The notes under the pieces: model-generated
Databases searched by the model: none
The model's input: the letters and a program-made list of their open reading frames with translations, nothing else
Told to the model about the DNA's origin: nothing
From: Fidelibacterota bacterium
GTDB taxonomy: Bacteria; Fidelibacterota; Fidelibacteria; Fidelibacterales; DSDE01
DNA length: 64,000 nt
Direction of reading: 5' to 3'
Assembly (NCBI GenBank): GCA_046735395.1
Contig: JBJKQR010000062.1
Location: 4,800 to 68,799, forward strand
Translations under genes and position numbers: made by a program
Part shown: one piece after another, positions 1 to 21,700 of the stretch
Layout of the letters: each line of letters opens with the position of its first letter
Numbering within the stretch: position 1 is the stretch's first letter

Positions 1-1870
1 TTTCGATTTCATCGAAGAGCACGACGGAATAGGGCCGTTTCCGGACTTTTTCCGTGAGCATTCCCCCTTCCTCATAGCCCACATATCCGGGAGGGGCACC
101 GATCAGCCGGCTGACAGTGAATTTTTCGGAAAATTCGGACATATCCAGCTTGATGAGGGCATTGATATCATCAAAAATCACCCGGGCCAGGACTTTTGCC
201 AGCTCCGTCTTGCCCACACCGGTGGGGCCGAGAAAGAGAAAGGAACCGATGGGACGATGGGGATTTTTCAGCCCTGCCCGCGTGCGGCGAATGGATTTGG
301 ACAATTCCCGGATGGCTTCCTCCTGTCCCACAATGTGGCGCAGCAGTTCATCTTCCATGTTCAGATACTTGTCCCCTTCGTTGCGCATCACCTTTTTCAC
401 AGGGATGCCTGTCATCATCTTGACAATGTCCGCAACCACTTCCTCATCCACCAGCGGATAATTCTTCTCCTTGTTCTCCGTCAGGGTCTTTTCCGTCTCC
501 TGCAGCTCCAGGCTCACCTGCTTTTCCATATCGCGGATTTCGGCTGCCTTCTCGAAATCCTGAAGCCGGATGGCTTCATTCTTTTCCCGGGTCATCTCAT
601 CCTTGCGGGCATACAGCTCCAGAAGCTCCCGGGGAATATCAAAATTTTTCAGCGACACATGAGCGCCGGCTTCATCCAGCAGGTCAAAGGCCTTGTCCGG
701 AAGAAATTTATCCGTAATATATTTCTCACTGTAGCGGATGCAGGCCTCAATGGCCTCCTCGGTATATCTCACATTATGATGTTCCTCATAGCGGTTCTTC
801 AGAGAATGGAGGATGGTCCGCGTCTGTTCCATGGACGGCGGATTGACCGTCACCTTCTGAAAACGCCGTTCCAGGGCACCGTCTTTTTCAATGTATTTCT
901 TGTATTCGTCGAAGGTCGTGGCTCCGATGCAGTGAATCTCTCCTCTCGCCAGCGCAGGTTTGAAGAGATTGGCCGCATCCAGTGATCCCTGAGCAGATCC
1001 GGCGCCGACCAGCACATGAAGCTCATCGATAAAAATAATGATATCCTTATTCTGCAGCAGTTCATCCATGAGGCTCTTGATGCGTTCCTCAAACTGGCCG
1101 CGGAACTTGGTGCCGGAAATGAGATTTCCCAGATCAATATTGACAATCCGCTTATTCAGGAGCGAATGGGGTACATCATTCTGAATGATCTTGTTGGCCA
1201 GTCCTTCCACAATGGCGGTCTTGCCCACACCCGGCTCCCCGATGAGGACGGGATTGTTCTTTTTTCGGCGGGACAGGATCTGGGCGACCCGCATAATCTC
1301 TTCATCCCGGCCGATCACCGGATCCAGACGGTTTTCCTGGGCCAATTTCGTAAAATCCTGCCCGAAATTATCCAGAACGGGTGTAGCGGACTTGCTCTGC
1401 GTCTCCTTAACCTCAGAGACTTCAAAACTGCTCTCATAGTTCTGGCGGTTCAGCATTTCCGCCCGAACCTGTTCATAGGAAATATCACTCATGAGCAGAA
1501 TATCCGATGACAGTTCCTCCGCTTCCTTCATGATGGCCAGAAGCAGATGTCCCGAATTCAGATGGGTATAATTGAGCTTTCGGCTTTCCAGATAGGTCAT
1601 TTTCAGAACCCGTTCCGCCCGTTTTGTCAGCGGGATGGTGCCGTAATTTGCGACGGCGTGCATCAGTCGCAGCCGGTTTTCCAGCAGCTGCTGCATCCGT
1701 TCCGGGTTCATCCCCAGCTTGAGCAGGATGTCGTAGGCGGTACACTCGGGGTTTTTCAGAATTCCCAGGAACAGATGTTCCGTATTGATGTAATTCTGCC
1801 CGAGGGCAATGGCGTCATTCCTGGCGTTTTCAATTATTTTCTGCAGATTTTTCGAGTAGTTGTAGGACAT
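1..1870 (-). CDS. clpC: ClpC-type AAA+ Clp protease ATP-binding subunit. Partial: the 3' end runs off the left edge, so it is absent from the ORF track.
   Basis: Own minus-strand translation from the ATG at 1870-1868 gives [38 protein letters not shown] (Clp_N). Walker A-1 is [16 protein letters not shown] (about 1201-1260). A UVR-like [12 protein letters not shown] is present. Walker A-2 is [16 protein letters not shown] (about 181-240). [17 protein letters not shown]...[10 protein letters not shown] lies at 1-120. The segments I translated contain no in-frame stop. Confidence 0.9.
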
Positions 1871-1927
1871 CTGGATTTTCCTCAGATTTATCTTAATTTA
1901 AGGAAAGGCGGCGGGAGAAACAGCCTC

Positions 1928-2626
1928 TTATTTCAGACAGTGGAGGCGCCCGCCCTTCAATTCGCAGACCCGTTTCATGGGTTCCATCAGTACGGCGTCG
2001 TGGCTGACCATGAGAATGGTCTGCCGGAATTCGTCATTAATCCGGGCAAAGAGCTCCATCACCTGCAGTGCATTTTCCCGGTCCAGATTTCCCGTGGGTT
2101 CATCAGCCAGCAGAACGGCCGGCGTATTGATGAGAGCCCTGGCAATGGATACGCGCTGTTTTTCACCGCCCGAGAGTTCAGCAGGATAATGATGCGCCCG
2201 GTCTGCGACATGTAAAAACTCCAGCAGTTCCAGAGCCGCGGCCTGCGCGTCCTTTCTGCTCCGGCCTGCAATCATGGCAGGTATGGCCGCATTTTCCACA
2301 GCTGTGAATTCCGGGAGCAGATAGTGGAACTGAAAAATGAACCCCACCTGCTGCTGACGGAAGGCCGTAAAATCCTTTTCACTTTTTCCGCTGAACGAAA
2401 AACCGTTCAGGATAATTTCCCCGCTGTCCGCGCTGTCCATGCTCCCCAGAATATTCAGAAAGGTGGATTTTCCGGATCCGGAGGTTCCCAGCAACCCGAC
2501 CATGTCCCCCTTCTCCGCACTGAACTCCAGATCATCCAGAACCTGGAGCCGCTGACTGCCGCTGCTGTAACTTTTACTCAGATGCCGGACTTCAATAAAC
2601 ATAGTGCCTTCCTTAATTTTTTTCAC
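1928..2626 (-). CDS. lolD: Lipoprotein-releasing ABC transporter ATP-binding protein (LolD-type)
   Basis: Walker A GTSGSGKST, ABC signature LSGGEKQRVSIARAL, Walker B LLADEPTGNLD, H-loop VSHD. It lies directly downstream of two LolC/E-type permease genes. The true start may be the internal MFIEV (2602), which would avoid the 14-nt overlap. Confidence 0.85.
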   Translation of the reverse strand: MKKIKEGTMFIEVRHLSKSYSSGSQRLQVLDDLEFSAEKGDMVGLLGTSGSGKSTFLNILGSMDSADSGEIILNGFSFSGKSEKDFTAFRQQQVGFIFQFHYLLPEFTAVENAAIPAMIAGRSRKDAQAAALELLEFLHVADRAHHYPAELSGGEKQRVSIARALINTPAVLLADEPTGNLDRENALQVMELFARINDEFRQTILMVSHDAVLMEPMKRVCELKGGRLHCLK

Positions 2627-6551: not shown

Positions 6552-7670
6552 TTATTCCTCAGTTTCGTTCATTTTACGGTACTTCCAGGCCAGAAAGGCA
6601 TGGATGAAGGGATTGAGATTCCCATCCATCACGGCCTGAATATTTCCGGTTTCATAACCGCTGCGCGTATCCTTCACCATGGTATAGGGCTGAAAGACAT
6701 AGCTTCGGATCTGACTGCCCCAGGCAATATCCATCTTGCTCTTGTCCAGCTCGTTCCGCCGGGCCTTTTCCTCCTCAGACTGCCTCTGATACAGACGGGA
6801 ATAGAGGATTTTCATGGCTACATCCTTGTTTTTATGCTGGGACCGTTCATTCTGGCAGCTGACAACGATTCCCGTGGGAAGATGGGTAATCCGGACGGCC
6901 GAATCGGTCTTGTTCACATGCTGGCCTCCGGCCCCGCTGGCCCGAAAGGTATCGATGCGCAGGTCCACCGGATTGATTTCGATATCGGGCACTTCATCAA
7001 AAACCGGGTAGGCAAAAACCGAGGCAAAGGACGTATGTCTGCGGGCGTTGCTGTCGAAGGGGGAAATTCTCACCAGGCGGTGAACTCCGCTCTCCGCATT
7101 CACATAGCCATAGGCATAATTGCCCTTGACCTCAATGACAACTTCCTTGATTCCGGCGATTTCACCGGGCAGATAATTCAGGACCCGATACTCAAATCCC
7201 CGGTCATCCAGCCAGCGTGTATACATGCGAAAAAGCATGCTGGCCCAGTCCATGGACTCCGTTCCCCCGGCTCCGGGCCGGATTTCCAATATCGCATCCC
7301 GCCGGTCGTGCTCACCGCTCAGAAGCTTTTCACTCTCAATATCATCCAGATTCTTTTCCAGTGCGGCCAGCAGCGACTTGAATTCATCCAGAACATCATT
7401 GTCCTCTTCCATCATCATGACGTAGAGATCAATATCTTCGGTCTGCTGCTGTACCTTTTTCCAGCGTTCCTGCTCAAATTCGATCCCGGCAAGTTCCCGG
7501 TTGACGGCCTGGGCACGGTCCTGATCCTGCCAGAAGCCGTCCTCGGTCGTCATGTCCCGGAGTTCGGCCAGGCGCTCGGACTTGGCATCCACATCCATGT
7601 ATTTTTTTACATCGGCTGTCTTGCGCTTAAGTTTTTCGCTCATATCGAGAATGCTGTCAGGAATCTGCAT
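6552..7670 (-). CDS. prfB: Peptide chain release factor 2, one uninterrupted ORF with no programmed +1 frameshift
   Basis: 372 aa. RF2-specific SPF (RISPFDS) and the GGQ motif (SGAGGQHVNKTDSAVRITH). The N-terminus ...KKYMDVDAKSERL aligns with the E. coli frameshift region (GYL-UGA-DYDAKKERL) without a stop. Confidence 0.95.
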   Translation of the reverse strand: MQIPDSILDMSEKLKRKTADVKKYMDVDAKSERLAELRDMTTEDGFWQDQDRAQAVNRELAGIEFEQERWKKVQQQTEDIDLYVMMMEEDNDVLDEFKSLLAALEKNLDDIESEKLLSGEHDRRDAILEIRPGAGGTESMDWASMLFRMYTRWLDDRGFEYRVLNYLPGEIAGIKEVVIEVKGNYAYGYVNAESGVHRLVRISPFDSNARRHTSFASVFAYPVFDEVPDIEINPVDLRIDTFRASGAGGQHVNKTDSAVRITHLPTGIVVSCQNERSQHKNKDVAMKILYSRLYQRQSEEEKARRNELDKSKMDIAWGSQIRSYVFQPYTMVKDTRSGYETGNIQAVMDGNLNPFIHAFLAWKYRKMNETEE

Positions 7671-12980: not shown

Positions 12981-13040
12981 TTATAATAACCCGGACTTTT
13001 CGGTTCTGCGGAAAGATCTGCCTGGGGAAATTGTTGGCGG

Positions 13041-13465
13041 GTTAGTGCGTTAAAGCGTTAATGCGTTAATGCGTTGATGAGTTGACGAGTTGACGAGTAG
13101 ACGAGTAGATGGGGAAGAAGCGGAACTCTCCGCGTCCATAGAATTTCGCCACTCGTAAACCAGATTGCGCTGCGGATCAGGTCCGCAGTGACAGTCCACA
13201 ATGACAGAAGGACACGCGCAGGGAGGCGAAGGCGAAGGCTAAGGTTGAGGTTGAGGAAGAAACGAGAAATTGCCCTGCTGTAAAAGCCGGCGATCCCGGG
13301 AATATCAACTTGTAATCTTGTGGGGCTGTTTCAGGAGCCGGGAACCGGCGCAAGCTTCAAACTTCCGGCTTCCAGCTTCATGCTTGCTGCGTCGAAGACG
13401 GGCTACTCGATACTCGATACTCATTACTGTCGAAGCGAAACGAAGACGGGCTACTCGCTACTGGC
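13041..13465. repeat. Cluster of four short degenerate ('drifting') tandem arrays in a 500-nt non-coding gap between convergent genes
   Basis: Period 8, 13041-13112: GTTAGTGC GTTAAAGC GTTAATGC GTTAATGC GTTGATGA GTTGACGA GTTGACGA GTAGACGA GTAGATGG. Period 6, 13225-13260: GGCGAA GGCGAA GGCTAA GGTTGA GGTTGA GGAAGA. Period 7, 13354-13388: GCTTCAA ACTTCCG GCTTCCA GCTTCAT GCTTGCT. Period 7, 13403-13430: CTACTCG ATACTCG ATACTCA TTACTGT. There is also a perfect 17-bp direct repeat CGAAGACGGGCTACTCG at 13393-13409 and 13441-13457, and a hairpin CTGCGGA-TCAGG-TCCGCAG at about 13170-13188. Confidence 0.8.
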
Positions 13466-13480
13466 GTAGCTTCAGCCTTC

Positions 13481-14242
13481 CTATCCGTCCTCCCCGAAAA
13501 GGGATATCTGGGTCACAGGCGTATCGGGCTCGTCCGGCACTGCGTTATACAGTTTTCCGTCCAGCAGACGTCCGTTCTCATGTTTTTCCCGCCAGATGCC
13601 GTCGGGCCCCCGGCTTCCCCACTGCCGGAAAGTGAATGCGATGCCGTCCCGTTCACAGAGATCCCGGATATTCAGCACCCAATCCTTTTTCATCCTCCGG
13701 GCTTTCGGGCCGCTTTCGCCGCCGACCAGAACCCAGTGAATCCCGGTCAGATCCGGAGTTCCTATATCCTCCAGCAGCGGTTCCACCGACAGGAAGCGGA
13801 CAGTCGCCGCCACCTGACGAAGCTCATCAATGCGCGGCAGTCCATGGCGGATATTCTCGACAGTAACGCCCAGCCAGAGATTCCTCGGAATCTCCCGGGT
13901 TTTGAAATAGTCCTTCATTCGGGATGCACGTTTGGTCAGCATCTGGAACAGGTGCCGGGGCGTACGCCGGATAACATCCAGAATTTCATCTAAAAAGGCA
14001 TCGGGCATGGCCTCATGAAATACATCGCTCATGGATGACACAAAATACCAGGTCGGGCTTTTCCGTTTCAGCGGAAGCTGCAGGCGATCCGGATGCAGGG
14101 AGAATTCAAACCCATTTTCGTAGCCCGGGGCGCCCATTTTCTTCAGCCTGAGCGCAAAGCCTTCAGCATAACAGTTCCGGCAGCCTTCGGAAATTTTGCT
14201 GCATCCGGTCACCGGGTTCCAGGATTCAAATTTTCGCTGCAT
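13481..14242 (-). CDS. DUF5131 / phage Gp37-Gp68 family protein
   Basis: 253 aa. N-terminal three-Cys cluster WNPVTGCSKISEGCRNCYAE, then FVSSMSDVFHE, WLGVTVEN, FLSVEPLLEDI and WVLVGGESGPKARRM. This layout is typical of PF07505 as I recall it. Confidence 0.8.
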   Translation of the reverse strand: MQRKFESWNPVTGCSKISEGCRNCYAEGFALRLKKMGAPGYENGFEFSLHPDRLQLPLKRKSPTWYFVSSMSDVFHEAMPDAFLDEILDVIRRTPRHLFQMLTKRASRMKDYFKTREIPRNLWLGVTVENIRHGLPRIDELRQVAATVRFLSVEPLLEDIGTPDLTGIHWVLVGGESGPKARRMKKDWVLNIRDLCERDGIAFTFRQWGSRGPDGIWREKHENGRLLDGKLYNAVPDEPDTPVTQISLFGEDG

Positions 14243-14289: not shown

Positions 14290-14859
14290 CTATTCCATCG
14301 CCTTGCGGATATAACGTTTTATATACTCAAAATGATTCCCCACTTCCGTATCCAGATTCGGTGTGGGATCGAAGAGATCCAGATTCAGAATGAATTTCAC
14401 CTTCTGATCGGGGCCGATGATATACAGATCCCTCTGAACAGCATGCCAGGCGATGGCCTGATTCACACCCGGCGCAGGATTCAGCACGGGCAGCGTCATC
14501 CCTTCACGGTCAAAGGGAGCATTGCGGTAGGGATGCACTTCAATATCGATCATGTTCACATTCCGGAAAGCTTCATCCTTCCCGAGAAGCGTATGAATTT
14601 CGTTGAGAGCGCCGAACCGGCGCAGACACTTGCCTCAACCAAGCGATCCGAAATAGACCAGCAGGACCTGGCCCTTATATTGTTCCAGGGTCAGCGTATC
14701 GCCGAAGCTCCCGGAATTCTTGTTGATATTTTTCATTGCAAACGTGGGCAGCGCCGACTTGCGCAGTTCCGGATTAATCATTTTCTGGAAATGGTCAAAA
14801 GCCGGAAGTGCCGACACCAGCATCAGCAGGACGAGTCCCATTTTTCGGATTCGAGTCAT
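14290..14859 (-). CDS. Predicted selenoprotein: secreted thioredoxin-fold (TlpA/AhpC-TSA-like) thiol-disulfide oxidoreductase with a U-G-K-C redox motif. The TGA at 14637-14635 is read as selenocysteine.
   Basis: Track ORFs 14635..14859 and 14290..14559 share one frame (start-to-start offset 300 nt). My read-through is ...EQYKGQVLLVYFGSLG[TGA]GKCLRRFGALNEIHTLLGKDEAFRNVNMIDIEV... with no other stop. The TGA occupies the first-Cys position of the CxxC motif after the beta1 strand. There is a signal peptide (MGLVLLMLVSALPAF), an AGGAG Shine-Dalgarno about 9 nt upstream of the ATG at 14859, and a SECIS-like hairpin downstream. Confidence 0.75.
14602..14639 (-). promoter_or_regulatory. Candidate bacterial SECIS element
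   Basis: mRNA: GUUGAG-GCAAGUGUCU-GCGCCG-GUU-CGGCGC-U-CUCAAC. The lower 6-bp stem (14639-14634 with 14607-14602) contains the UGA. The upper stem is an all-GC 6-bp helix (14623-14618 with 14614-14609) and starts 11 nt after the UGA. The apical loop is G/U-only. Confidence 0.6.
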
Positions 14860-14871
14860 TATTCATTACTC

Positions 14872-15783
14872 CTATATAAGTCCGTATTTCTGTAGATAAG
14901 ACCGGATCAGCGCCAGCAGGGCCGATTCATAAGTCCCGTAGCTCGCAGCGCCCACAACCCATGTACCCGGATCATTGGACAACAGGCCATTGTCAGCATC
15001 AATGCGGTCACAGTGCTGCTGCGCCAGATCGAAAAGTCCCTTGTTATAGCAGGCCAGCGCCAGAATCGTCCGCAGGCGTTCGGGATAAATAATATCCGGA
15101 ATCACCGTACTACCGTAGGCCGAGTCCGCCTTGAAAAGCCTGTTCAGATCATCCAGGCATCCGTCATAATTTTCCGATTGGAGAAAGTAGAGAGCTCTCC
15201 CGGCCAGTGCGTCATAATTATTCCGGTTTATGGCCAGGGCCTGATCCAGCGCATCATAGGCATCTGCAGGATAGAGGTCCAGCAGCAGTCCGGACCAACC
15301 CAGACCGCAGAGCGCGTCATCCGAATATTTCCGCAGGGCAGCGGCAGCAAAAAAAGCGTCGTAGGCGGACCAGTAATCACTGCCATTCAGAGCTGACCAG
15401 CCACGGGACAGGTAATCCTCAAAGGAAAATAATTTCTGATAATTCTGGGGTGTCCGGAATTCGTAGATCGCCGAGCTCACTTTCCCTGAATAGAATTCGG
15501 ACGCGCTGCTGACCCGATAATACCACAGCGTATCGGCGCTCAGATAATTGAGCGGCACCTCATGAAGCTGCCGTTCCTCCGCCAGCACCGTGTCCCGCCA
15601 GGTCTTCTGATCCTGAGAATACAGAACCCGCGAATTTGCCGGAACATTCGTCTCCCAGACAATGGTCACATGAGCCAGTTCATCAATACTCACATCCGGC
15701 CCGGAACTGATCCTCACATCCGGAATCTTCGGCTGACAGCCCAGCAGAAAAAGACTCATGAAAAGGGGAAGATATGCTTTCAT
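14872..15783 (-). CDS. Lipoprotein with an N-terminal FN3/PAP-N-like beta domain and a C-terminal TPR-like helical domain
   Basis: 303 aa. Lipobox LFLLGC. The beta-sandwich-like segment is HVTIVWETNVPANSRVLYSQ...LWYYRVSS...YEFRTP. The alpha-helical half is rich in Y/A/L/D repeats. Its ATG overlaps the upstream stop (ATGA at 15783-15780). Confidence 0.7.
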   Translation of the reverse strand: MKAYLPLFMSLFLLGCQPKIPDVRISSGPDVSIDELAHVTIVWETNVPANSRVLYSQDQKTWRDTVLAEERQLHEVPLNYLSADTLWYYRVSSASEFYSGKVSSAIYEFRTPQNYQKLFSFEDYLSRGWSALNGSDYWSAYDAFFAAAALRKYSDDALCGLGWSGLLLDLYPADAYDALDQALAINRNNYDALAGRALYFLQSENYDGCLDDLNRLFKADSAYGSTVIPDIIYPERLRTILALACYNKGLFDLAQQHCDRIDADNGLLSNDPGTWVVGAASYGTYESALLALIRSYLQKYGLI

Positions 15784-18700
15784 TTGAGTACCATGATTTT
15801 ACGGGAGCTGACGCTGCCCTCGTTTTGCAGTTGCAGAAAATATATGCCCGACGAAACATTTTCACCATTCAGGCTTCGGGCATCCCAGGCCGCCCGGTAA
15901 ATGCCCGCTTCCATCATCGTATCACGCAGAATGGCCACCCTTCGGCCCAGAATATCATAGACAATGATCTTCACATGGCCGGGATGGGCAACTGTGAAGC
16001 TGAACTCGGTGCGTCCGTTGAAAGGATTGGGATAATTGGGATTGAGAATGGATTTGTCAGGCAGGATCTGTTTTCCGGATTTGGACAACCGGAAGCTGTA
16101 ATTTCCGCTGCGCTCCACCGGTGCCGAGAGTGTATTTTCTTTCGAATGGTACCGGGTGGGAAGCTCGACCCATCCGCTGTCCGTTTCCTGGATGAAGACA
16201 AAATGATTCAGAATCTCCGGGGGCAGTCCCAGTCTGTCGGCACTGGTCTGAATCGTCAGAAAATCCGCCGTCTTCATCCCGTAGGGTTGAATGGAATAAA
16301 CCCGGTTCAGATCCTGTCGAACCGGTGCACTGCGCTGATTTTCACCAAGGCTGAGCAGCAGATTTTCGGGGGCATTGTTATAAATAAGGTCAATGCGTCC
16401 ATCCGCACTGTTCAGGCTTCCGGCCGTATTGGCGGCTATCTGCAGACTCTGGACGACACAGCTGTCACGACGGATATTCTCGCTGAGATCCACACCCTGA
16501 AATATGATTTCATCAATGGATTTCATGCCCATGGACAGACGCGTCCTGTACACATTATAGAGGCGGTCGGCCAGATCCAGACTGAAGGATTTGCCATTAA
16601 TGCGGGCATACATGTTCTCCATGATTTCTCCGGGAAAGACATAGAGATCACAGGCATTTTTCCTGAATGGTACCGGCATGAGGGCATAATGAAAATCGGA
16701 AACGGACGAATCCTTCACCGTTTCCACGCTCAGGCTGTAGGAATTCTGCCGGTCGGTGGATACAGTCGTTTCGAGAATCGGATCCGAACGGAGATCGGAG
16801 GCCAGCACATCGCCGGCGCTGTTCCGGACGGAGATGCGGATATTCCCGGGAAAGGCGCTGGGGTTTTTCAGCTGCAGTTTCCATGTCCGCGATGGAATGC
16901 CCCGGTTCCAGATCGTAAACTTCCAGTCCCGGACGCTGAGGTCAGAATTTTTCAGGTCGTAATTGAGTTTATACCCGGGTGTATCGAAGTAGAGGGCGAC
17001 GAATTTATCCCGGTTCGGTTCAAAATACAGCGCATCGCGCGTATCGTATCCGCCACGGGCGGCCTCATCAATTCCGAAACGGTTGTTCTCCGTCGTGTAG
17101 CGCATATCCGGCGACGAGACACTGAGAAGCCCGACCCAGCGATTTGTCAGTGAAATGGTTTCATTCCGGCTGTAGCTGCCCAGCGTCTCACCGCTGGGCG
17201 AAATTTTCGGAATGGCGGCCGAAACCTGTTTGCCGAAGGCTTCCCTGTCATATATTAGTTTGATGGGCAGAGAGGAATGATTCACCACCCAGTATCCCTC
17301 CCAGGTGGAAATGGTGTCCCGGTCATACCAGGAATCCACAACCGGGTCTACCGGATAGTAGGCGGATTTTTCCGATTCCCAGACATAGGCATAGGAATTC
17401 ACCCAGCCGGCCGCGGCCGCTTCGGCAATGGACAGGGTATCACCGCTCTGAGCCACTCTCACATTATTCCAGCGGATCATGCTTTCGAAGGGATTGGCCA
17501 CAAGATTCATGGACGAGCTCAAACCCGGCTGAGGCAGTTCCAGAGGATATCCGAAGGGCGTGATCACCGCCGAGCCACGGAATTTCAGGGTGACACTGGG
17601 CTGCAGATGCTGGGCAATGATGAAGCCCCGGCCCGGTTCAAAGGGCTGAAATCCGGCCGGATCCTCGCTGAAATAATTATAGCTGGAATCGATGGCGTTA
17701 TAATTGATGAGATTCCAGGTATAGGAGGTATCACTGGGAACCTGGCCGTCAATATCATCTCCCACCACGGACATGGGGCTGCCGTCGGCAGCGACAGCCG
17801 GGATGCCGATGAGCTTCCAGATATCCTTCGGCAGGGACGTGGAGGCCGATACCGTATCTCCCGAACAGGCGGAGCAGTATGACAGCGTATCCTTGTATAT
17901 GTCCTCCACATGGTCGATGATCAGGGCGGATGAATACAGCGCCACATTGTCCATGTAGCCGGTAAAATGATTGGAATAGCTGGAGCTCCCGGTCTGCAGG
18001 GCACCCAGAATGACAGGATTGCTGTTGGGAAGAATTGTCTCGCTGATGGGATTATTATTGGCGGCGTAGAGGCCATTCACGTACAGGTAGCGTTTCAGCG
18101 GATCCGTATTGTAGGTCACCACGATATGATTCCAGGTATTCTCATTCAGAATAATATTCGTATCCCAGGGCTGGTCATTCACCTGCCACAGAACAGAATT
18201 GTCACTGTCTACGGAAAGAATGAAACCCGTATCGGCCGGATAGCCCTTGGAAACCAGAGTCCGGACCGTATTCCCCGGAGAGATGTAAACCCACAGGGCA
18301 ATGCTCATGGAATTCTGAAAATTCAGGAGTGTATTATCGGGAATGACGATATCATCGTCCCCTTCGAACTGCGCAGATCTGCAGATTTTATTCACGGCCA
18401 GCTGGGGCTGAACATTGACCGAATAACCATCCAGATAATTGATGGTATAATCCTTCACTTCATCCACGCTGCCGTCGTAGCTGCAGCGGTCAAAGCGCCA
18501 GTCGGCCGTTTTCGGGGGAAGAGCCGCCGAACCGCAGACGGGACACAGGCCCAGCACATCCTGATAGATATCGAGAATCTGGTTATCCGTCAGCGCCGAA
18601 CCGTAGATCCTCATATCATCCAGAGAACCCCAGAAGAAGGAATTTTCATCCGTATCCGTGATCCGGCTCCGGCCGATGATCAGGCGTTCATCCCAGTACG

Positions 18701-21700
18701 GAAGATAAGGAATATCATTATTGGCGTTCAGGTTCACGCCCGGTACGCGCTGGCCGTCAATATAGATGGCAAGAATATTACTTTCGTGCTCATCATAAAC
18801 CGCTGATATGTGATACCACTTGCCTGTCTGTGCCTTCCAGTGGGGATAGCTGTATTTCTTGATATAGGCATCGTCCCGGTAAACCCAGAACTGCAGACTC
18901 GAATCAGCCGCCACATATTTCAGGTCAAAGACATGATTGGTATTTTCCTGGGCATCATCATCATAATGAAATTGCCGCACAATGTGGCCATCCCGGTCCA
19001 GCCGGTCAAAATTGATCCAGGCGGCAACCGTCAGCTCATTCTTTCCGCCTAAAAAATTAGACGGCTCAGTCTGCATATAATCCAGATTCCCGTCGAAAAC
19101 GGCCCGGCGGCAGACTTTTCCCGTATCCAGATAGCAGTCAGACAGGTTACCGATGGACGCGTGAAGATTTACCACATCCGCATTGTCCTTCACCTCTCCA
19201 TCCTGATGTATGTAATTGCATTCATCGAATTTGTAATAGACCAGCAGTTCAATATTGCCGCAGTCCTCGGTGCAGGGATGAACATCGGTGACCAGCGCGT
19301 CAATCTCATTTTGAGTGAGGGCGTAATCATATATTCGGACCTCGTCCATCCCGCCCTTGAGATAACGGTGAATCGACGGCCGGTATCTGCCCATGAAAAT
19401 ACGACCGGCCCTGTCGCGGAGATGAGTAAAGGTTCCGGTTGATTTGACGGGAGCCTGTTTTTGGATTCCATCCAGAAAAACCTGAATTTTTTCCGTCCGG
19501 TACTTGTAAAAGGTGATGGCGATATGATACCATTCGCCGGGGTTGGGAACCCAGCGGAAATTGGCGTTGTAATAATTCTGATCATCGGAATAGACATAGG
19601 TGCGCAGCTCATTATTGATATAATCAATCATAAAGGTTGGCTGAATGGTCTCCGTCGTGTCTCCCATGACCATGACGGTCTGGTTGCCGCTGACACCCAG
19701 CGAATCGAAGCGGATAAAAAAGCTGGTGCTCATGGCATCCTTGCCGGCCAGGATGGTCGTGGGATCCGTAAACAGCCAGTCGTTCACACCATCAAACTTT
19801 GCCGCGTTACAGACCTGTCCCGACCAGGTGGTCATATCATGAAGAGCCGTCGCATTCAGGGAAATACTGGCTTCATTCTGAGCCTGTTTCGTCGGAGGGG
19901 AAAACCAGTGACATTCATCCATTTTCCAGTAGGAAGACGGTGAGCAGTCATTATAAAAGCGATAGGTACCGGTAAAATTCTTTCCGGCCACGAAATTATT
20001 ATACATCTGGCTGATGGACAGTTCATCCAGCAGAGAGGAAAAAACAATGCCTTCATCCATACTGCCCACGAAGGGATTGGTCCCGGCCGTATTATCGGCC
20101 TTCCCGAAGATCAGTGAGGAAATATTGACCAGCTGCGGCGAGCGGTCGTTATAGGTATCTCCGCTGATCTGCCCGTCCACATAACAGTAATGAAAGGTTC
20201 TGCGCCGACGGGTATCATAGTTCCGGGCCCAGACAACCTGATGCCACTGATCCAGGCTCAGCGCGCCCACCGGGAACTGAAAATCCTTTATGACAGTCCG
20301 TTCACCATCGAAATAGGTCCGGATGGTCCGTGTATCCAGCAGGCTCATGACCATCTGATCCGTGCTGCCGTTATTCCCGCAGAAAATCACATTGTTATTG
20401 GCTTCCGATGGCTTGATCCAGATGGTGAAGGTATAATCGTAGACGCCATTCAGCGTATCAAAATTATCAATACTCACATAGTCGCCCGCAGAGAAGGACA
20501 GGGCACGGTTCAGGACCGCATTCCCCGCCGCGTCAGCCGTATCAAGCTGAACCGTACCGAAGCCGGTGCCATAGAAGCGATGACTGGTCGTTTTCGTCAC
20601 CTGATTGACAGCTTCATCGGGACGGTTGTCCCAGCCGCATTCGTCAAAACGCCAGTTGGACACGATACCGCAGTAGCCGCAGTCTCTCTGGGTCCCGTCA
20701 TAATTCTGTCCGTTCAGTGAATTCTGGTACATCTGCATGACTTTTTCATCGGTGATGGGAAAATTCCAGAGAGCCACTTCATCCATCAGCCCGTCATAGA
20801 GGCCGTAACCGACGGAGCCACCGGTCGTCCCCAGATACATATTGATATTCGAGACCTGATGGATTCGGGATCCGAAATCCTTCTCCGCCACCTTGACACC
20901 ATCCATATAGATTCGTTTATAATTGGCATCTGAGGAAAAGACCATGTAATGCCATTCGTTCAGGGTGGCCGGATAGGTCGGCAGATTCGGGTTTGACTGG
21001 GCATCCGGACAGTCGGGTGTCGGATCCCACTCGTCATTGGTGGTCTGAAATACCCATTGCCCGTTATGCAGGGCAATTTCATAACACATCATGGAGAAAG
21101 GCCCGGCCGGGTCATTACAGTTGAGAAAGGCTTCATTCAGTGAGAGGAGCCAGCTTTTCACCGCATCCCGCGGATTCACCCACATGGAAATGGCGATCTG
21201 GTCATACACCATGTTGAAACGGTCATCGAAGGGAATACTGATATAGGGCGCGGCGGTAAAATCCGCCCCCTTGCACAGCGCCCCGTCATCACCGGGCTGA
21301 ATGTTGTTTATGGGCGTCCCGTTCAGGCCATTGGGGCCCGAGTCCTTCACATCCGGGGATCCGCTGGTCCACTGACATTCATCAAATCGCCATTCGGCCA
21401 GAGGCGGACAGTCGACACAGATCCGGGGAGACCCGTCGTAATTCTTATTCTGAATCTCATACCCATATATTTTCGAGATCTGGCTTTCCGAAAGCGGAGC
21501 CTTGAAAACCATGATATCATCGATTTTCCCATTGAAATCATTGATGAAGGATGTTCCGCTCTTTTCAGAGCCCACATAGAGATTTTCACCGGTCTGATCA
21601 AGGGGATCGGTGTTGTAGATGGCAATGCTGTCCAGCAGTCCGTTGATAAAAACTCGCTTGTAGTATCCGTCATAGGTCACGGCCACATGGGTCCAGACAT

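What the first reader, a model, noticed from the sequence alone, without database searches (positions are those of the whole stretch)
14290..14859. Hidden selenoprotein: a thioredoxin-fold redoxin split by an in-frame TGA at the CxxC position, with a SECIS-like hairpin
Seen in sequence:
- The 74-aa and 89-aa track ORFs are in one minus-strand frame (their starts are 300 nt apart).
- The 75-nt gap translates without further stops: ...TLEQYKGQVLLVYFGSLG-[TGA]-GKCLRRFGALNEIHTLLGKDEAFRNVNMIDIEVHPY....
- The TGA (14637-14635) falls where TlpA/ResA/AhpC-TSA-type thioredoxin-fold proteins carry the nucleophilic Cys. That position is the hydrophobic beta1 strand, then W-C-x-x-C, then the alpha1 helix. 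Reading it as Sec gives U-G-K-C.
- The mRNA folds as GUUGAG(UGA inside)-10 nt-GCGCCG-GUU-CGGCGC-U-CUCAAC. This is an all-GC apical stem starting 11 nt after the UGA with a G/U loop.
- There is a signal peptide and a good AGGAG ribosome-binding site at the upstream ATG.

Established knowledge: bacterial SECIS elements are hairpins immediately 3' of the UGA, and UxxC/CxxU thioredoxin-fold selenoproteins are a recurrent class.

Inference: this is one 189-aa periplasmic Sec-containing oxidoreductase that automated annotation would report as two fragments or a pseudogene.
Basis: partly seen in the sequence, partly recalled or inferred. Interest (0 to 1): 0.8.

Follow-up and report, generated by a model that had tools for sequence, protein, structure and literature searches.

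The report
Hidden selenocysteine redoxin gene, confirmed
Two short 'genes' on the minus strand are really one 189-codon gene for an exported thioredoxin-fold enzyme whose in-frame TGA almost certainly encodes selenocysteine. It is a real but fairly ordinary kind of selenoprotein that automatic annotation splits in two.

Summary
Window 14859..14290 (-) is one 189-codon frame with a single in-frame TGA at 14637-14635.

Main evidence:
- Four further distinct orthologues from unrelated metagenome assemblies (38-52% identical to the window protein and to most of each other) all carry TGA at the same column, LLVYFGS[VL]G-TGA-GKC.
- Protein conservation is equal on both sides of the TGA.
- No Cys-form or uninterrupted homologue was found.
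- All five have a 6-bp apical hairpin 11 nt after UGA with a GUU or GUA loop. It meets the published bacterial SECIS rules. One pair occurs as G-C, U-A and G·U. Synonymous sites next to the UGA are frozen.
- The protein is homologous (E 1e-19 to 1e-24) to NCBIfam NF053656, 'TUGYCR motif thioredoxin fold (seleno)protein', but scores below its cut-off. Substitution tests place the TGA on that family's Sec column.
- Profile alignment places it on the first Cys of the TlpA CxxC.
- RF2 is encoded in the window and TGA is the commonest stop, so this is local recoding, not a changed genetic code.

Not shown: selA, selB, selC and selD, which are absent from the 64 kb and could not be looked for elsewhere, and any selenium chemistry.

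Verdict: interpretation supported. This is a new member of a known kind, probably from Fidelibacterota (Marinimicrobia). Interest is moderate to low.

The parts
14290..14859 (-). Complete selenoprotein gene: 189 codons (ATG 14859-14857, Sec-TGA at codon 75, stop TAG 14292-14290). It encodes an exported thioredoxin-fold redoxin.
   Evidence: Searches give the frame. Searches give NF053656 hits at E 5e-19 to 1e-23 that span residues 38-166, on both sides of the TGA. Searches show five orthologues with the same structure.
14869..14873 (-). AGGAG Shine-Dalgarno-like site, 9 nt upstream of the ATG. It overlaps the TAG stop (14874-14872) of the upstream 303-aa gene.
   Evidence: Read directly. Function is inferred.
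14800..14859 (-). Predicted N-terminal signal peptide (MTRIRKMGLVLLMLVSALPA). The cleavage site is approximate.
   Evidence: Read from the sequence. All four full-length orthologues have a basic then hydrophobic N-terminus with low sequence identity. No signal-peptide predictor was available, so this is inferred.
14635..14637 (-). In-frame TGA, read as the selenocysteine codon (residue 75).
   Evidence: TGA sits at the same alignment column in all five distinct orthologues. It aligns to the first Cys of CxxC in TlpA-like proteins. It aligns to the Sec/Cys column of NF053656: replacing it with Ala or Trp costs 7-8 bits.
14626..14637 (-). Redox motif U-G-K-C (Sec75, Cys78), invariant in the family.
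   Evidence: Searches show the invariant columns G74, U75, G76, K77, C78. In one search, C78A costs 7 bits against NF053656.
14609..14623 (-). Conserved apical SECIS-like hairpin GCGCCG-GUU-CGGCGC. It starts 11 nt after the UGA, and the UGA-to-loop spacing is 17 nt.
   Evidence: It is 100% paired in all five orthologues, and the third pair occurs as G-C, U-A and G·U. Hairpin energy is -8.8 to -10.7 kcal/mol, and all consensus rules are met. Background rate is 0.5-1.9% of TGA triplets.
14602..14639 (-). The lower stem is window-specific.
   Evidence: One search gives the fold. One search shows the lower helix 80% paired, with two of six positions broken in most orthologues.

Best explanation
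Window 14859..14290 (-) is one gene for a roughly 165-residue mature, Sec-pathway-exported thioredoxin-fold oxidoreductase. Its active site is Sec75-Gly-Lys-Cys78.

Proposed mechanism: during translation, the apical hairpin 11 nt downstream of UGA75 (14623-14609) is bound by SelB·GTP·Sec-tRNA(Sec). This outcompetes RF2 and inserts selenocysteine. After export, Sec75 acts as the attacking nucleophile and Cys78 as the resolving residue, cycling through a selenenylsulfide. This corresponds to the CxxC of TlpA/ResA-type periplasmic reductases, or to the peroxidatic Sec of GPx/Prx-like enzymes.

Shown here:
- It is a single conserved reading frame.
- The TGA is conserved.
- The hairpin is conserved, with a compensatory change.
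- The protein is homologous to a curated (seleno)protein family, with Sec in register.
- UGA is an ordinary stop elsewhere in this genome.

Inferred:
- Actual Sec insertion, because the decoding machinery was not seen.
- Export.
- The substrate. My preferred guess is thiol-disulfide reduction or isomerisation of envelope or secreted proteins. In two of four lineages the gene lies directly downstream of a giant Cys-rich T9SS cargo gene.
For: 1. **One frame.** One frame with a single TGA.
2. **Conserved TGA.** Five distinct orthologues carry TGA at the identical column: window, L003, L001, L004, and L005 (L006-L008 carry the same gene sequence as L005). The window protein is 38-45% identical to each, and most other pairs are 43-53% identical (L003/L001 are 80%).
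3. **Both sides conserved.** Identity is 51-62% upstream (residues 38-74) and 41-53% downstream.
4. **Only fragments in databases.** Database searches return only fragments that end at ...VYFGSVG or begin at varied, non-homologous starts after the TGA. No Cys form was found.
5. **Homology to a (seleno)protein family.** NF053656 redoxin_TUGYCR matches at E 5e-19 to 1e-23 across the TGA.
6. **Sec in register.** Making the site TCGYCR raises the NF053656 score from 68.6 to 77.4 bits. U75A, C78A and U75W lower it to 61.6, 61.6 and 60.6 bits.
7. **TlpA alignment.** hhalign against a TlpA-family protein gives 98.2% probability over 133 columns, with U on the first Cys of CGPC. The PDB alignments agree.
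8. **SECIS rules met.** The hairpin meets the published bSECIS rules in all five orthologues (rules from PMC13188914; test). One stem pair shows G-C, U-A and G·U.
9. **Frozen synonymous sites.** Four of five invariant-residue codons at -1..+6 are codon-identical, against 2 of 36 elsewhere (Fisher p = 7e-4).
10. **Standard genetic code.** RF2 is encoded at 6552-7670 (502.9 bits against a cut-off of 370). TGA ends 27 of 47 long ORFs.
11. **Independent assembly.** It also has the TGA.
Against: - No selA, selB, selD or tRNA-Sec is present in the 64-kb window or in any fetched locus. The rest of the genome could not be reached.
- There are only four or five lineages, so the covariation statistics are weak (52 of 500 shuffles reach the observed score).
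- The hairpin overlaps conserved codons (C-L-R-R-F-G-A), so part of its conservation is protein-driven.
- Fold energy is not better than shuffles.
- No Rfam model matches.
- No literature was found documenting Sec use in Marinimicrobia/Fidelibacterota.
- There is no direct chemical evidence.
Confidence: 0.9

Rival explanations
1. Pseudogene: an ordinary CxxC redoxin gene inactivated by a TGC/TGT-to-TGA nonsense mutation.
For: A single-base change converts a Cys codon to TGA. Gene callers report two fragments.
Against: The same TGA is kept in five orthologues that are mostly 38-53% identical, with no other stop or frameshift. Protein conservation downstream of the TGA is undiminished. No Cys-form parent was found in 5.8 billion clusters or 1.84 billion representatives.
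Confidence: 0.02
2. Sequencing or assembly error: the true codon is TGC or TGT.
For: None specific. It is a generic possibility for a metagenome-assembled sequence.
Against: A Logan assembly of run SRR31309758 is 100% identical over 5172 bp, including the TGA. Four other lineages from different samples and assemblers have TGA at the same site.
Confidence: 0.01
3. Two separate small genes: a 74-aa exported peptide and an independent 87-114-aa protein.
For: Both pieces are called as genes in public data.
Against: A single thioredoxin-fold profile match spans the junction: NF053656 covers residues 38-166 and AhpC-TSA covers 37-156. The called starts of the second piece differ between orthologues: GTG at V79, ATG at M103, and another in L005. 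There is therefore no conserved start. Neither half alone would form a thioredoxin fold.
Confidence: 0.02
4. The UGA is read through, but not as Sec. Options are a tRNA(Sec)-like tRNA charged with Cys, near-cognate Trp read-through, or a reassigned genetic code.
For: The Sec machinery was not observed. Cys at this position would be chemically equivalent to the CxxC of homologues.
Against: Reassignment is excluded: RF2 is present and TGA is the main stop codon. Trp at position 75 lowers the family profile score by 8 bits and removes the nucleophile. The conserved SelB-type hairpin at canonical spacing and membership of a superfamily curated as '(seleno)protein' favour Sec. A Cys-charged SelC-like tRNA is known only as a rarity (my own knowledge, not checked here).
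Confidence: 0.04

Closest known systems
NCBIfam NF053656 'redoxin_TUGYCR': TUGYCR motif thioredoxin fold (seleno)protein
   Same: There is clear homology over about 130 residues (E 5e-19 for the window protein, down to 1e-23 for orthologues). The U-G-x-C redox motif is the same, with Sec and Cys in the same profile columns.
   Different: All four full-length members score 69-84 bits, below the curated 100-bit cut-off. The motif is G-U-G-K-C-[LV] rather than T-U-G-Y-C-R. This clade was seen only in Sec form. It is a sister clade, not a member by the curators' threshold.
TlpA/ResA/Etrx-type extracytoplasmic thiol-disulfide oxidoreductases (cd02966 TlpA-like). These include the catalogued selenoprotein subfamilies 'Thiol-disulfide isomerase-like protein (UxxC)' and 'Redoxin family protein (UxxC)' in PMC13188914.
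   Same: Both have an exported thioredoxin fold, with the nucleophile at the N-terminus of helix alpha-1 after a hydrophobic beta-strand. Sec aligns to the first Cys of CxxC. hhalign probability is 98.2%. UxxC Sec forms of this superfamily are already catalogued.
   Different: Gly replaces the usual Trp before the nucleophile. In the hhalign alignment, the invariant QRDLYI segment lies where TlpA has its Pro-Thr (cis-Pro) element. Pfam domains are all below gathering thresholds. The best PDB E-value is only 0.004.
Glutathione peroxidase and peroxiredoxin-like selenoproteins (GPx UxxT; Prx-like thiol:disulfide oxidoreductase UxxC, PF00578)
   Same: The active-site loop S-x-G-U-G-K-C resembles the GPx4-type loop A-S-Q-(U/C)-G-K-T in the alignments. 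AhpC-TSA is the best Pfam hit. An invariant Arg precedes the beta-strand (QRDLYI), as in Prx (my reading, not tested).
   Different: All of these matches are statistically weak: AhpC-TSA 21 bits against a gathering score of 26, and GPx chains at E 0.16-1. The GPx Gln/Trp/Asn tetrad and the Prx PxxxT motif were not demonstrated.
E. coli fdhF-type bacterial SECIS
   Same: The hairpin lies inside the coding region. Its minimal upper stem-loop starts 11 nt after UGA and has G then U at the start of a small apical loop. It fits the consensus rules quoted in PMC13188914 section 5.
   Different: The loop has 3 nt (GUU or GUA) and the perfect 6-bp stem has no bulged U. There is no sequence similarity to fdhF, and no Rfam family matches. 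SelB binding is untested.

Membership tests
Bacterial selenoprotein gene (Sec-UGA plus bSECIS) | In-frame UGA conserved at the same position in orthologues, with protein conservation on both sides | tested here: met
   Five distinct orthologues all carry TGA at one column. Identity is 51-62% upstream and 41-53% downstream.
Bacterial selenoprotein gene (Sec-UGA plus bSECIS) | UGA aligns with Cys (or Sec) in homologues | tested here: met
   It aligns to the first Cys of CxxC or CxxxC in TlpA-family, ResA, Sco and GPx chains. It aligns to the Sec/Cys column of NF053656.
Bacterial selenoprotein gene (Sec-UGA plus bSECIS) | Downstream stem-loop meeting the bSECIS consensus: loop of 3-9 nt, upper stem of 4-16 bp, G in the first two loop positions, 16-37 nt from UGA to loop, and energy of -7.5 kcal/mol or lower | tested here: met
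   The rules come from PMC13188914. All five orthologues have loop GUU or GUA, a 6-bp stem, spacing of 17 nt, and hairpin energy of -8.8 to -10.7 kcal/mol. One pair shows three pair types. The dedicated bSECISearch program was not available.
Bacterial selenoprotein gene (Sec-UGA plus bSECIS) | Genome encodes selA, selB, selC (tRNA-Sec) and selD | not testable with these tools
   None is present in the 64-kb window: no tRNA at all and no sel domains in the 20 largest ORFs. None is present in the related loci. The remaining part of the 167-kb source contig and the rest of the bin could not be fetched.
Bacterial selenoprotein gene (Sec-UGA plus bSECIS) | Selenium actually incorporated (75Se labelling or mass spectrometry) | not testable with these tools
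   This needs an experiment.
NCBIfam NF053656 redoxin_TUGYCR | Score at or above the curated cut-off (100 bits) | tested here: not met
   Scores are 68.6 bits (window) and 83.9, 74.8 and 80.0 bits (orthologues).
NCBIfam NF053656 redoxin_TUGYCR | T-U-G-Y-C-R motif | tested here: not met
   The family motif here is G-U-G-K-C-[LV]. Only U, G and C are shared. Converting it to TCGYCR raises the score by 8.8 bits, which shows the register is the same.
NCBIfam NF053656 redoxin_TUGYCR | Homologous thioredoxin-fold domain | tested here: met
   E-values run from 5e-19 to 1e-23 over profile positions 1-133 of 146.
TlpA/ResA-like periplasmic thiol-disulfide oxidoreductases | Thioredoxin fold with a dithiol (here selenol-thiol) xCxxC motif at the start of helix alpha-1 | tested here: met
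   hhalign gives 98.2% probability and E 4e-14. YFGSVG-U-GKC aligns to HFWATH-C-GPC.
TlpA/ResA-like periplasmic thiol-disulfide oxidoreductases | Pfam/CDD family thresholds (AhpC-TSA, Redoxin, Thioredoxin_8) | tested here: not met
   AhpC-TSA scores 21 bits against 26, Thioredoxin_8 13.1 against 27, and SCO1-SenC 14.2 against 22.8.
TlpA/ResA-like periplasmic thiol-disulfide oxidoreductases | Trp preceding the first Cys, and a cis-Pro loop opposite the active site | tested here: not met
   Gly74 precedes Sec. In one search the TlpA 'alPTtyiigpdg' segment aligns to 'QRDLYIigpd', with no Pro. This rests on the alignment only, so it is provisional.
TlpA/ResA-like periplasmic thiol-disulfide oxidoreductases | Export signal or membrane anchor | tested here: inconclusive
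   All four full-length orthologues have basic then hydrophobic N-termini of about 20 residues. No signal-peptide predictor was available.

The most novel reading that the evidence does not exclude
This may be a Sec-only exported redoxin clade, with no Cys-form relatives, confined to Fidelibacterota (Marinimicrobia)-like bacteria. Its active-site loop is GPx-like (S-x-G-U-G-K-C) and an invariant QRD replaces the TlpA cis-Pro. Its role could be periplasmic selenoperoxidase or dedicated disulfide handler for the giant Cys-rich LamG/T9SS surface protein encoded just upstream in two lineages. That would also be the first documented Sec use in this phylum.
Probability: 0.15. Interest if true: 0.5.

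Novelty: new member of a known kind. Interest (0 to 1): 0.35.

Why it matters
**Annotation.** The gene is reported in public data as two hypothetical fragments in every lineage found. It should be joined and flagged as a selenoprotein.

**Biology.**
- It implies that this Fidelibacterota/Marinimicrobia-like organism maintains the Sec-decoding machinery and depends on selenium. I found no paper in the searchable library that documents this for the phylum.
- It adds an apparently Sec-obligate sister clade to a very recently curated (seleno)protein family (NF053656).

**What it does not change.** It does not alter the picture of how Sec is decoded or what selenoproteins look like. Exported UxxC thioredoxin-fold proteins are the most typical bacterial selenoproteins.

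Tried and rejected
- **Word-indexed protein search** with the joined protein (U written as C) found nothing. Profile searches with 3 and 5 sequences found only fragments of the same four lineages plus two distant TlpA proteins.
- **Representative-library search.** Of its three hits, P0003 is a spurious match to a repeat protein (40% identity over about 30 residues, four stretches) and was discarded.
- **Genome collection.** Two scans found nothing. One of the two patterns in the second scan contained my artificial Cys at the Sec position and could not match a TGA, so that scan was partly wasted. The window's own genome is evidently not in that collection.
- **Rfam.** There was no match at gathering thresholds over the whole window. 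A permissive scan around the site gave only chance hits: Rhodo-rpoB, sR38 and NRON.
- **Other split selenoprotein genes.** A scan of the window for TGA-joined ORF pairs gave mostly antisense noise and no convincing second case.
- **Antisense ORF.** The 187-aa plus-strand ORF at 14332-14895 was considered as the 'real' gene and rejected. It has no family match, and no counterpart of 60 aa or more exists in L005, whereas the minus-strand product has E 5e-19 homology.
- **Literature.** Searches for TUGYCR and for Sec in Marinimicrobia/SAR406 found nothing relevant.
- **tRNA scans** of the window and all loci found no tRNA.
Full report
**1. The observation**

- On the minus strand, 14859..14290 reads as 189 sense codons. 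There is one internal stop, TGA at 14637-14635 (codon 75), and a terminal TAG.
They are 14635..14859 (74 aa) and 14290..14559 (89 aa, GTG start), in one frame and separated by 75 stop-free nucleotides.
- AGGAG lies 9 nt before the ATG and overlaps the stop of the upstream 303-aa gene.
- The predicted fold is exactly the one described: GUUGAG..10 nt..GCGCCG-GUU-CGGCGC-U-CUCAAC, -18.2 kcal/mol. It is no more stable than dinucleotide shuffles (z = -1.05), so the fold alone proves nothing.

**2. One protein, not two**

- With Cys written for the TGA, the product matches NCBIfam NF053656, 'TUGYCR motif thioredoxin fold (seleno)protein'. The match is E 5e-19 and 68.6 bits over residues 38-166, which lie on both sides of the TGA.
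- Pfam gives only sub-threshold AhpC-TSA, SCO1-SenC and Thioredoxin_8 hits over the same span.
- The 187-aa plus-strand ORF that overlaps the region (14332-14895) has no match and is not conserved in L005. It is a shadow ORF.

**3. Relatives**

- A word-indexed search with the joined protein found nothing.
- A full HMMER scan of 1.84 billion representatives with the C-terminal fragment found the window's own fragment, one 114-aa relative, and one spurious repeat protein.
- I then fetched the encoding contigs, scanned the metagenome collection, and ran two profile searches. This gave four further distinct orthologues:

| Locus | Source | Notes |
|---|---|---|
| L001 | ENA | partial gene |
| L003 | JGI, 30-kb contig | full-length |
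| L004 | Logan | full-length |
| L005-L008 | ENA and Logan | same sequence, from four contigs |

- L002 is a Logan contig 100% identical to the window over 5172 bp. It includes the TGA.
- Every database protein from these loci is a fragment. The N-terminal pieces all end in ...LLVYFGSVG.
- Read through, every gene has exactly one internal stop, always TGA, at the same alignment column: LLVYFGS[VL]G-TGA-GKC[LV][RL]R[FY]GAL.
- The window protein is 38-45% identical to each orthologue. The other pairs are 43-53% identical, except L001/L003 at 80%.
- Conservation is as high upstream of the TGA (51-62% for residues 38-74) as downstream (41-53%).
- The gene callers' starts for the downstream piece differ between lineages, so there is no conserved internal start.
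- No uninterrupted or Cys-containing member was found.
- This pattern excludes a pseudogene, an assembly error and a two-gene arrangement.

**4. The TGA column is the catalytic Cys/Sec column**

- PDB searches with phmmer and with the family profile align it to the first Cys of CxxC or CxxxC. The hits are Etrx1 (2yp6), TlpA (1jfu), ResA and ScoI (4wbr), plus the active-site Cys/Sec loop of GPx-type chains. All have weak E-values of 0.004 or worse.
- hhalign of the five-sequence family against a TlpA-family protein gives 98.2% probability and E 4e-14 over 133 columns. YFGSVG-U-GKC lies over HFWATH-C-GPC.
- To register the site against NF053656, whose alignment the tool does not print, I scored variants of the window protein:

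| Variant | NF053656 score (bits) |
|---|---|
| U75C (baseline) | 68.6 |
| G74T/K77Y/L79R (makes TCGYCR) | 77.4 |
| U75A | 61.6 |
| C78A | 61.6 |
| U75W | 60.6 |

- The window's Sec and Cys78 therefore occupy that family's U and C columns.
- All four full-length orthologues hit NF053656 at 69-84 bits, below its 100-bit cut-off. This is a sister clade, not a member by the curated threshold.

**5. The recoding signal**

- A 2026 review gives the bacterial SECIS consensus (PMC13188914, section 5):
  - an apical loop of 3-9 nt and an upper stem of 4-16 bp;
  - a G, usually followed by G or U, in the first two loop positions;
  - 16-37 nt between UGA and loop;
  - energy of -7.5 kcal/mol or lower.
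- All five orthologues have a 6-bp stem starting 11 nt after UGA, a GUU or GUA loop, 17-nt spacing, and hairpin-only energy of -8.8 to -10.7 kcal/mol.
- The stem is paired in 100% of cells. Its third pair is G-C in the window, U-A in L001 and L003, and G·U in L004 and L005. The U-A form combines a non-synonymous change (Arg to Leu) with a synonymous one (GGC to GGA).
- The variable third base of the Ala84 codon falls on the unpaired nucleotide after the stem.
- Among codons for invariant residues, four of five at positions -1..+6 relative to UGA are identical in all five sequences: GGT, GGC, TGT and CGG. Elsewhere only 2 of 36 are (Fisher p = 7e-4).
- In a simplified scan of all 2835 TGA triplets in the window, 1.9% have any hairpin meeting the rules and 0.5% have one as stable.
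- With only five sequences the shuffle control is not significant (52 of 500).
- Rfam has no matching model.

**6. Genetic code and organism**

- TGA terminates 27 of 47 long ORFs.
- The window encodes RF2 at 6552-7670 (-), scoring 502.9 bits against a cut-off of 370. UGA is therefore a normal stop, and its reading at codon 75 must be local recoding.
- The window is chromosomal. It carries lysS, tyrS, groEL, mreB, purH, PBP2, rodA, POR and feoB.
- Its MreB falls in a cluster at 90% identity or more with proteins that NCBI labels Candidatus Marinimicrobia or Neomarinimicrobiota. These names resolve to phylum Fidelibacterota in the FCB group.
- L005 and L006 share the purN-purH-mreB, feoB and 789-aa-gene neighbourhood with the window. 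The orthologues therefore come from related organisms.

**7. Context and function**

- In the window and in L003 the gene is the third in a co-directional row:
  1. a giant protein (2628 or 2657 aa) with eight Laminin_G_3 domains and a T9SS Por_Secre_tail;
  2. a 303- or 307-aa protein (42% identical between the two loci);
  3. the redoxin.
- In L004 and L005 the redoxin follows the 789-aa gene directly and precedes a metallo-beta-lactamase-fold gene.
- The downstream neighbours differ between loci: DUF5131 in the window, a lytic transglycosylase in L003, and Lactamase_B_2 in L005. No partner is universally conserved.
- Given the signal-like N-termini and the TlpA-like alignment, the most likely function is an exported selenol/thiol oxidoreductase.
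- The loop S-x-G-U-G-K-C and the invariant QRDLYI leave a GPx/Prx-like peroxidase role open. I could not test this.

**8. What is missing**

- No selA, selB, selD or tRNA-Sec lies in the window or in any locus. The rest of the genome was out of reach.
- The joined protein could not be submitted for structure prediction.
- I found no paper on Sec use in this phylum.
- The 2026 catalogue of 119 prokaryotic selenoprotein families lists several UxxC thioredoxin-fold families. It does not list NF053656 or this clade.

**9. Verdict**

- The evidence matches the standard used in the field for selenoproteins 'predicted with high confidence'.
- This is a new member of a well-known kind. It is useful for annotation and implies selenium dependence in a Fidelibacterota-like lineage, but it is not surprising to a specialist.

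Noticed in passing
window 6552-7670 (-): The release factor 2 gene (prfB, 502.9 bits) is a single uninterrupted 372-aa ORF that matches profile positions 2-352. It apparently lacks the programmed +1 frameshift common in bacterial prfB.
   Followed up: partly
window 15780-23666 (-); L003 1013-8986 (+): A giant 2628-aa secreted protein has eight Laminin_G_3 domains and a T9SS C-terminal sorting domain. Paired-Cys linkers recur between the repeats (for example CSNC, CYDC, CVDC, CGYC). It lies in conserved synteny with the 303-aa gene and the Sec-redoxin in two lineages. It may be a substrate of the redoxin, but this is speculation.
   Followed up: partly
window 14872-15783 (-): A 303-aa protein has a lipoprotein-like N-terminus (LFLLGC) and only a weak Pur_ac_phosph_N-like hit. 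It is 42% identical to its L003 counterpart, and its stop overlaps the redoxin's ribosome-binding site. Function unknown.
   Followed up: partly
window 13481-14242 (-): A DUF5131 gene (phage Gp37/Gp68-type; weakly 'radical SAM mobile pair protein A'-like) lies 45 nt downstream of the redoxin. It is not conserved at this position in the other loci.
   Followed up: partly
window 12981-13480: A 500-bp stretch without a convincing gene contains short tandem repeats: the 8-nt unit GTTAATGC x5.4 and a 16-nt unit x2.4, at 13041-13111.
   Followed up: no
window 14332-14895 (+): A 187-aa ORF lies antisense to the whole selenoprotein gene. It has no family match and no counterpart of 60 aa or more in L005. 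It is a shadow ORF that an annotator could wrongly call instead of the split gene.
   Followed up: yes
window 1016-2215 (+): ORF 1016..1510 ends in TGA and is followed in the same frame by ORF 1547..2215. The latter competes with minus-strand ORFs at 1485-1745 and 1928-2626. I did not examine whether this is another read-through or simply adjacent or spurious ORFs.
   Followed up: no
window 25812-28178 (-); L005 7465-9834 (+): A 788/789-aa protein has no Pfam hit but has a sub-threshold 'glucosamine-6-phosphate deaminase-like' region in NCBIfam. It is the neighbour of the redoxin locus shared by the window and the L005-L007 lineage (L004 and L008 begin too close to the gene to tell, and L003's upstream was not examined).
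   Followed up: no
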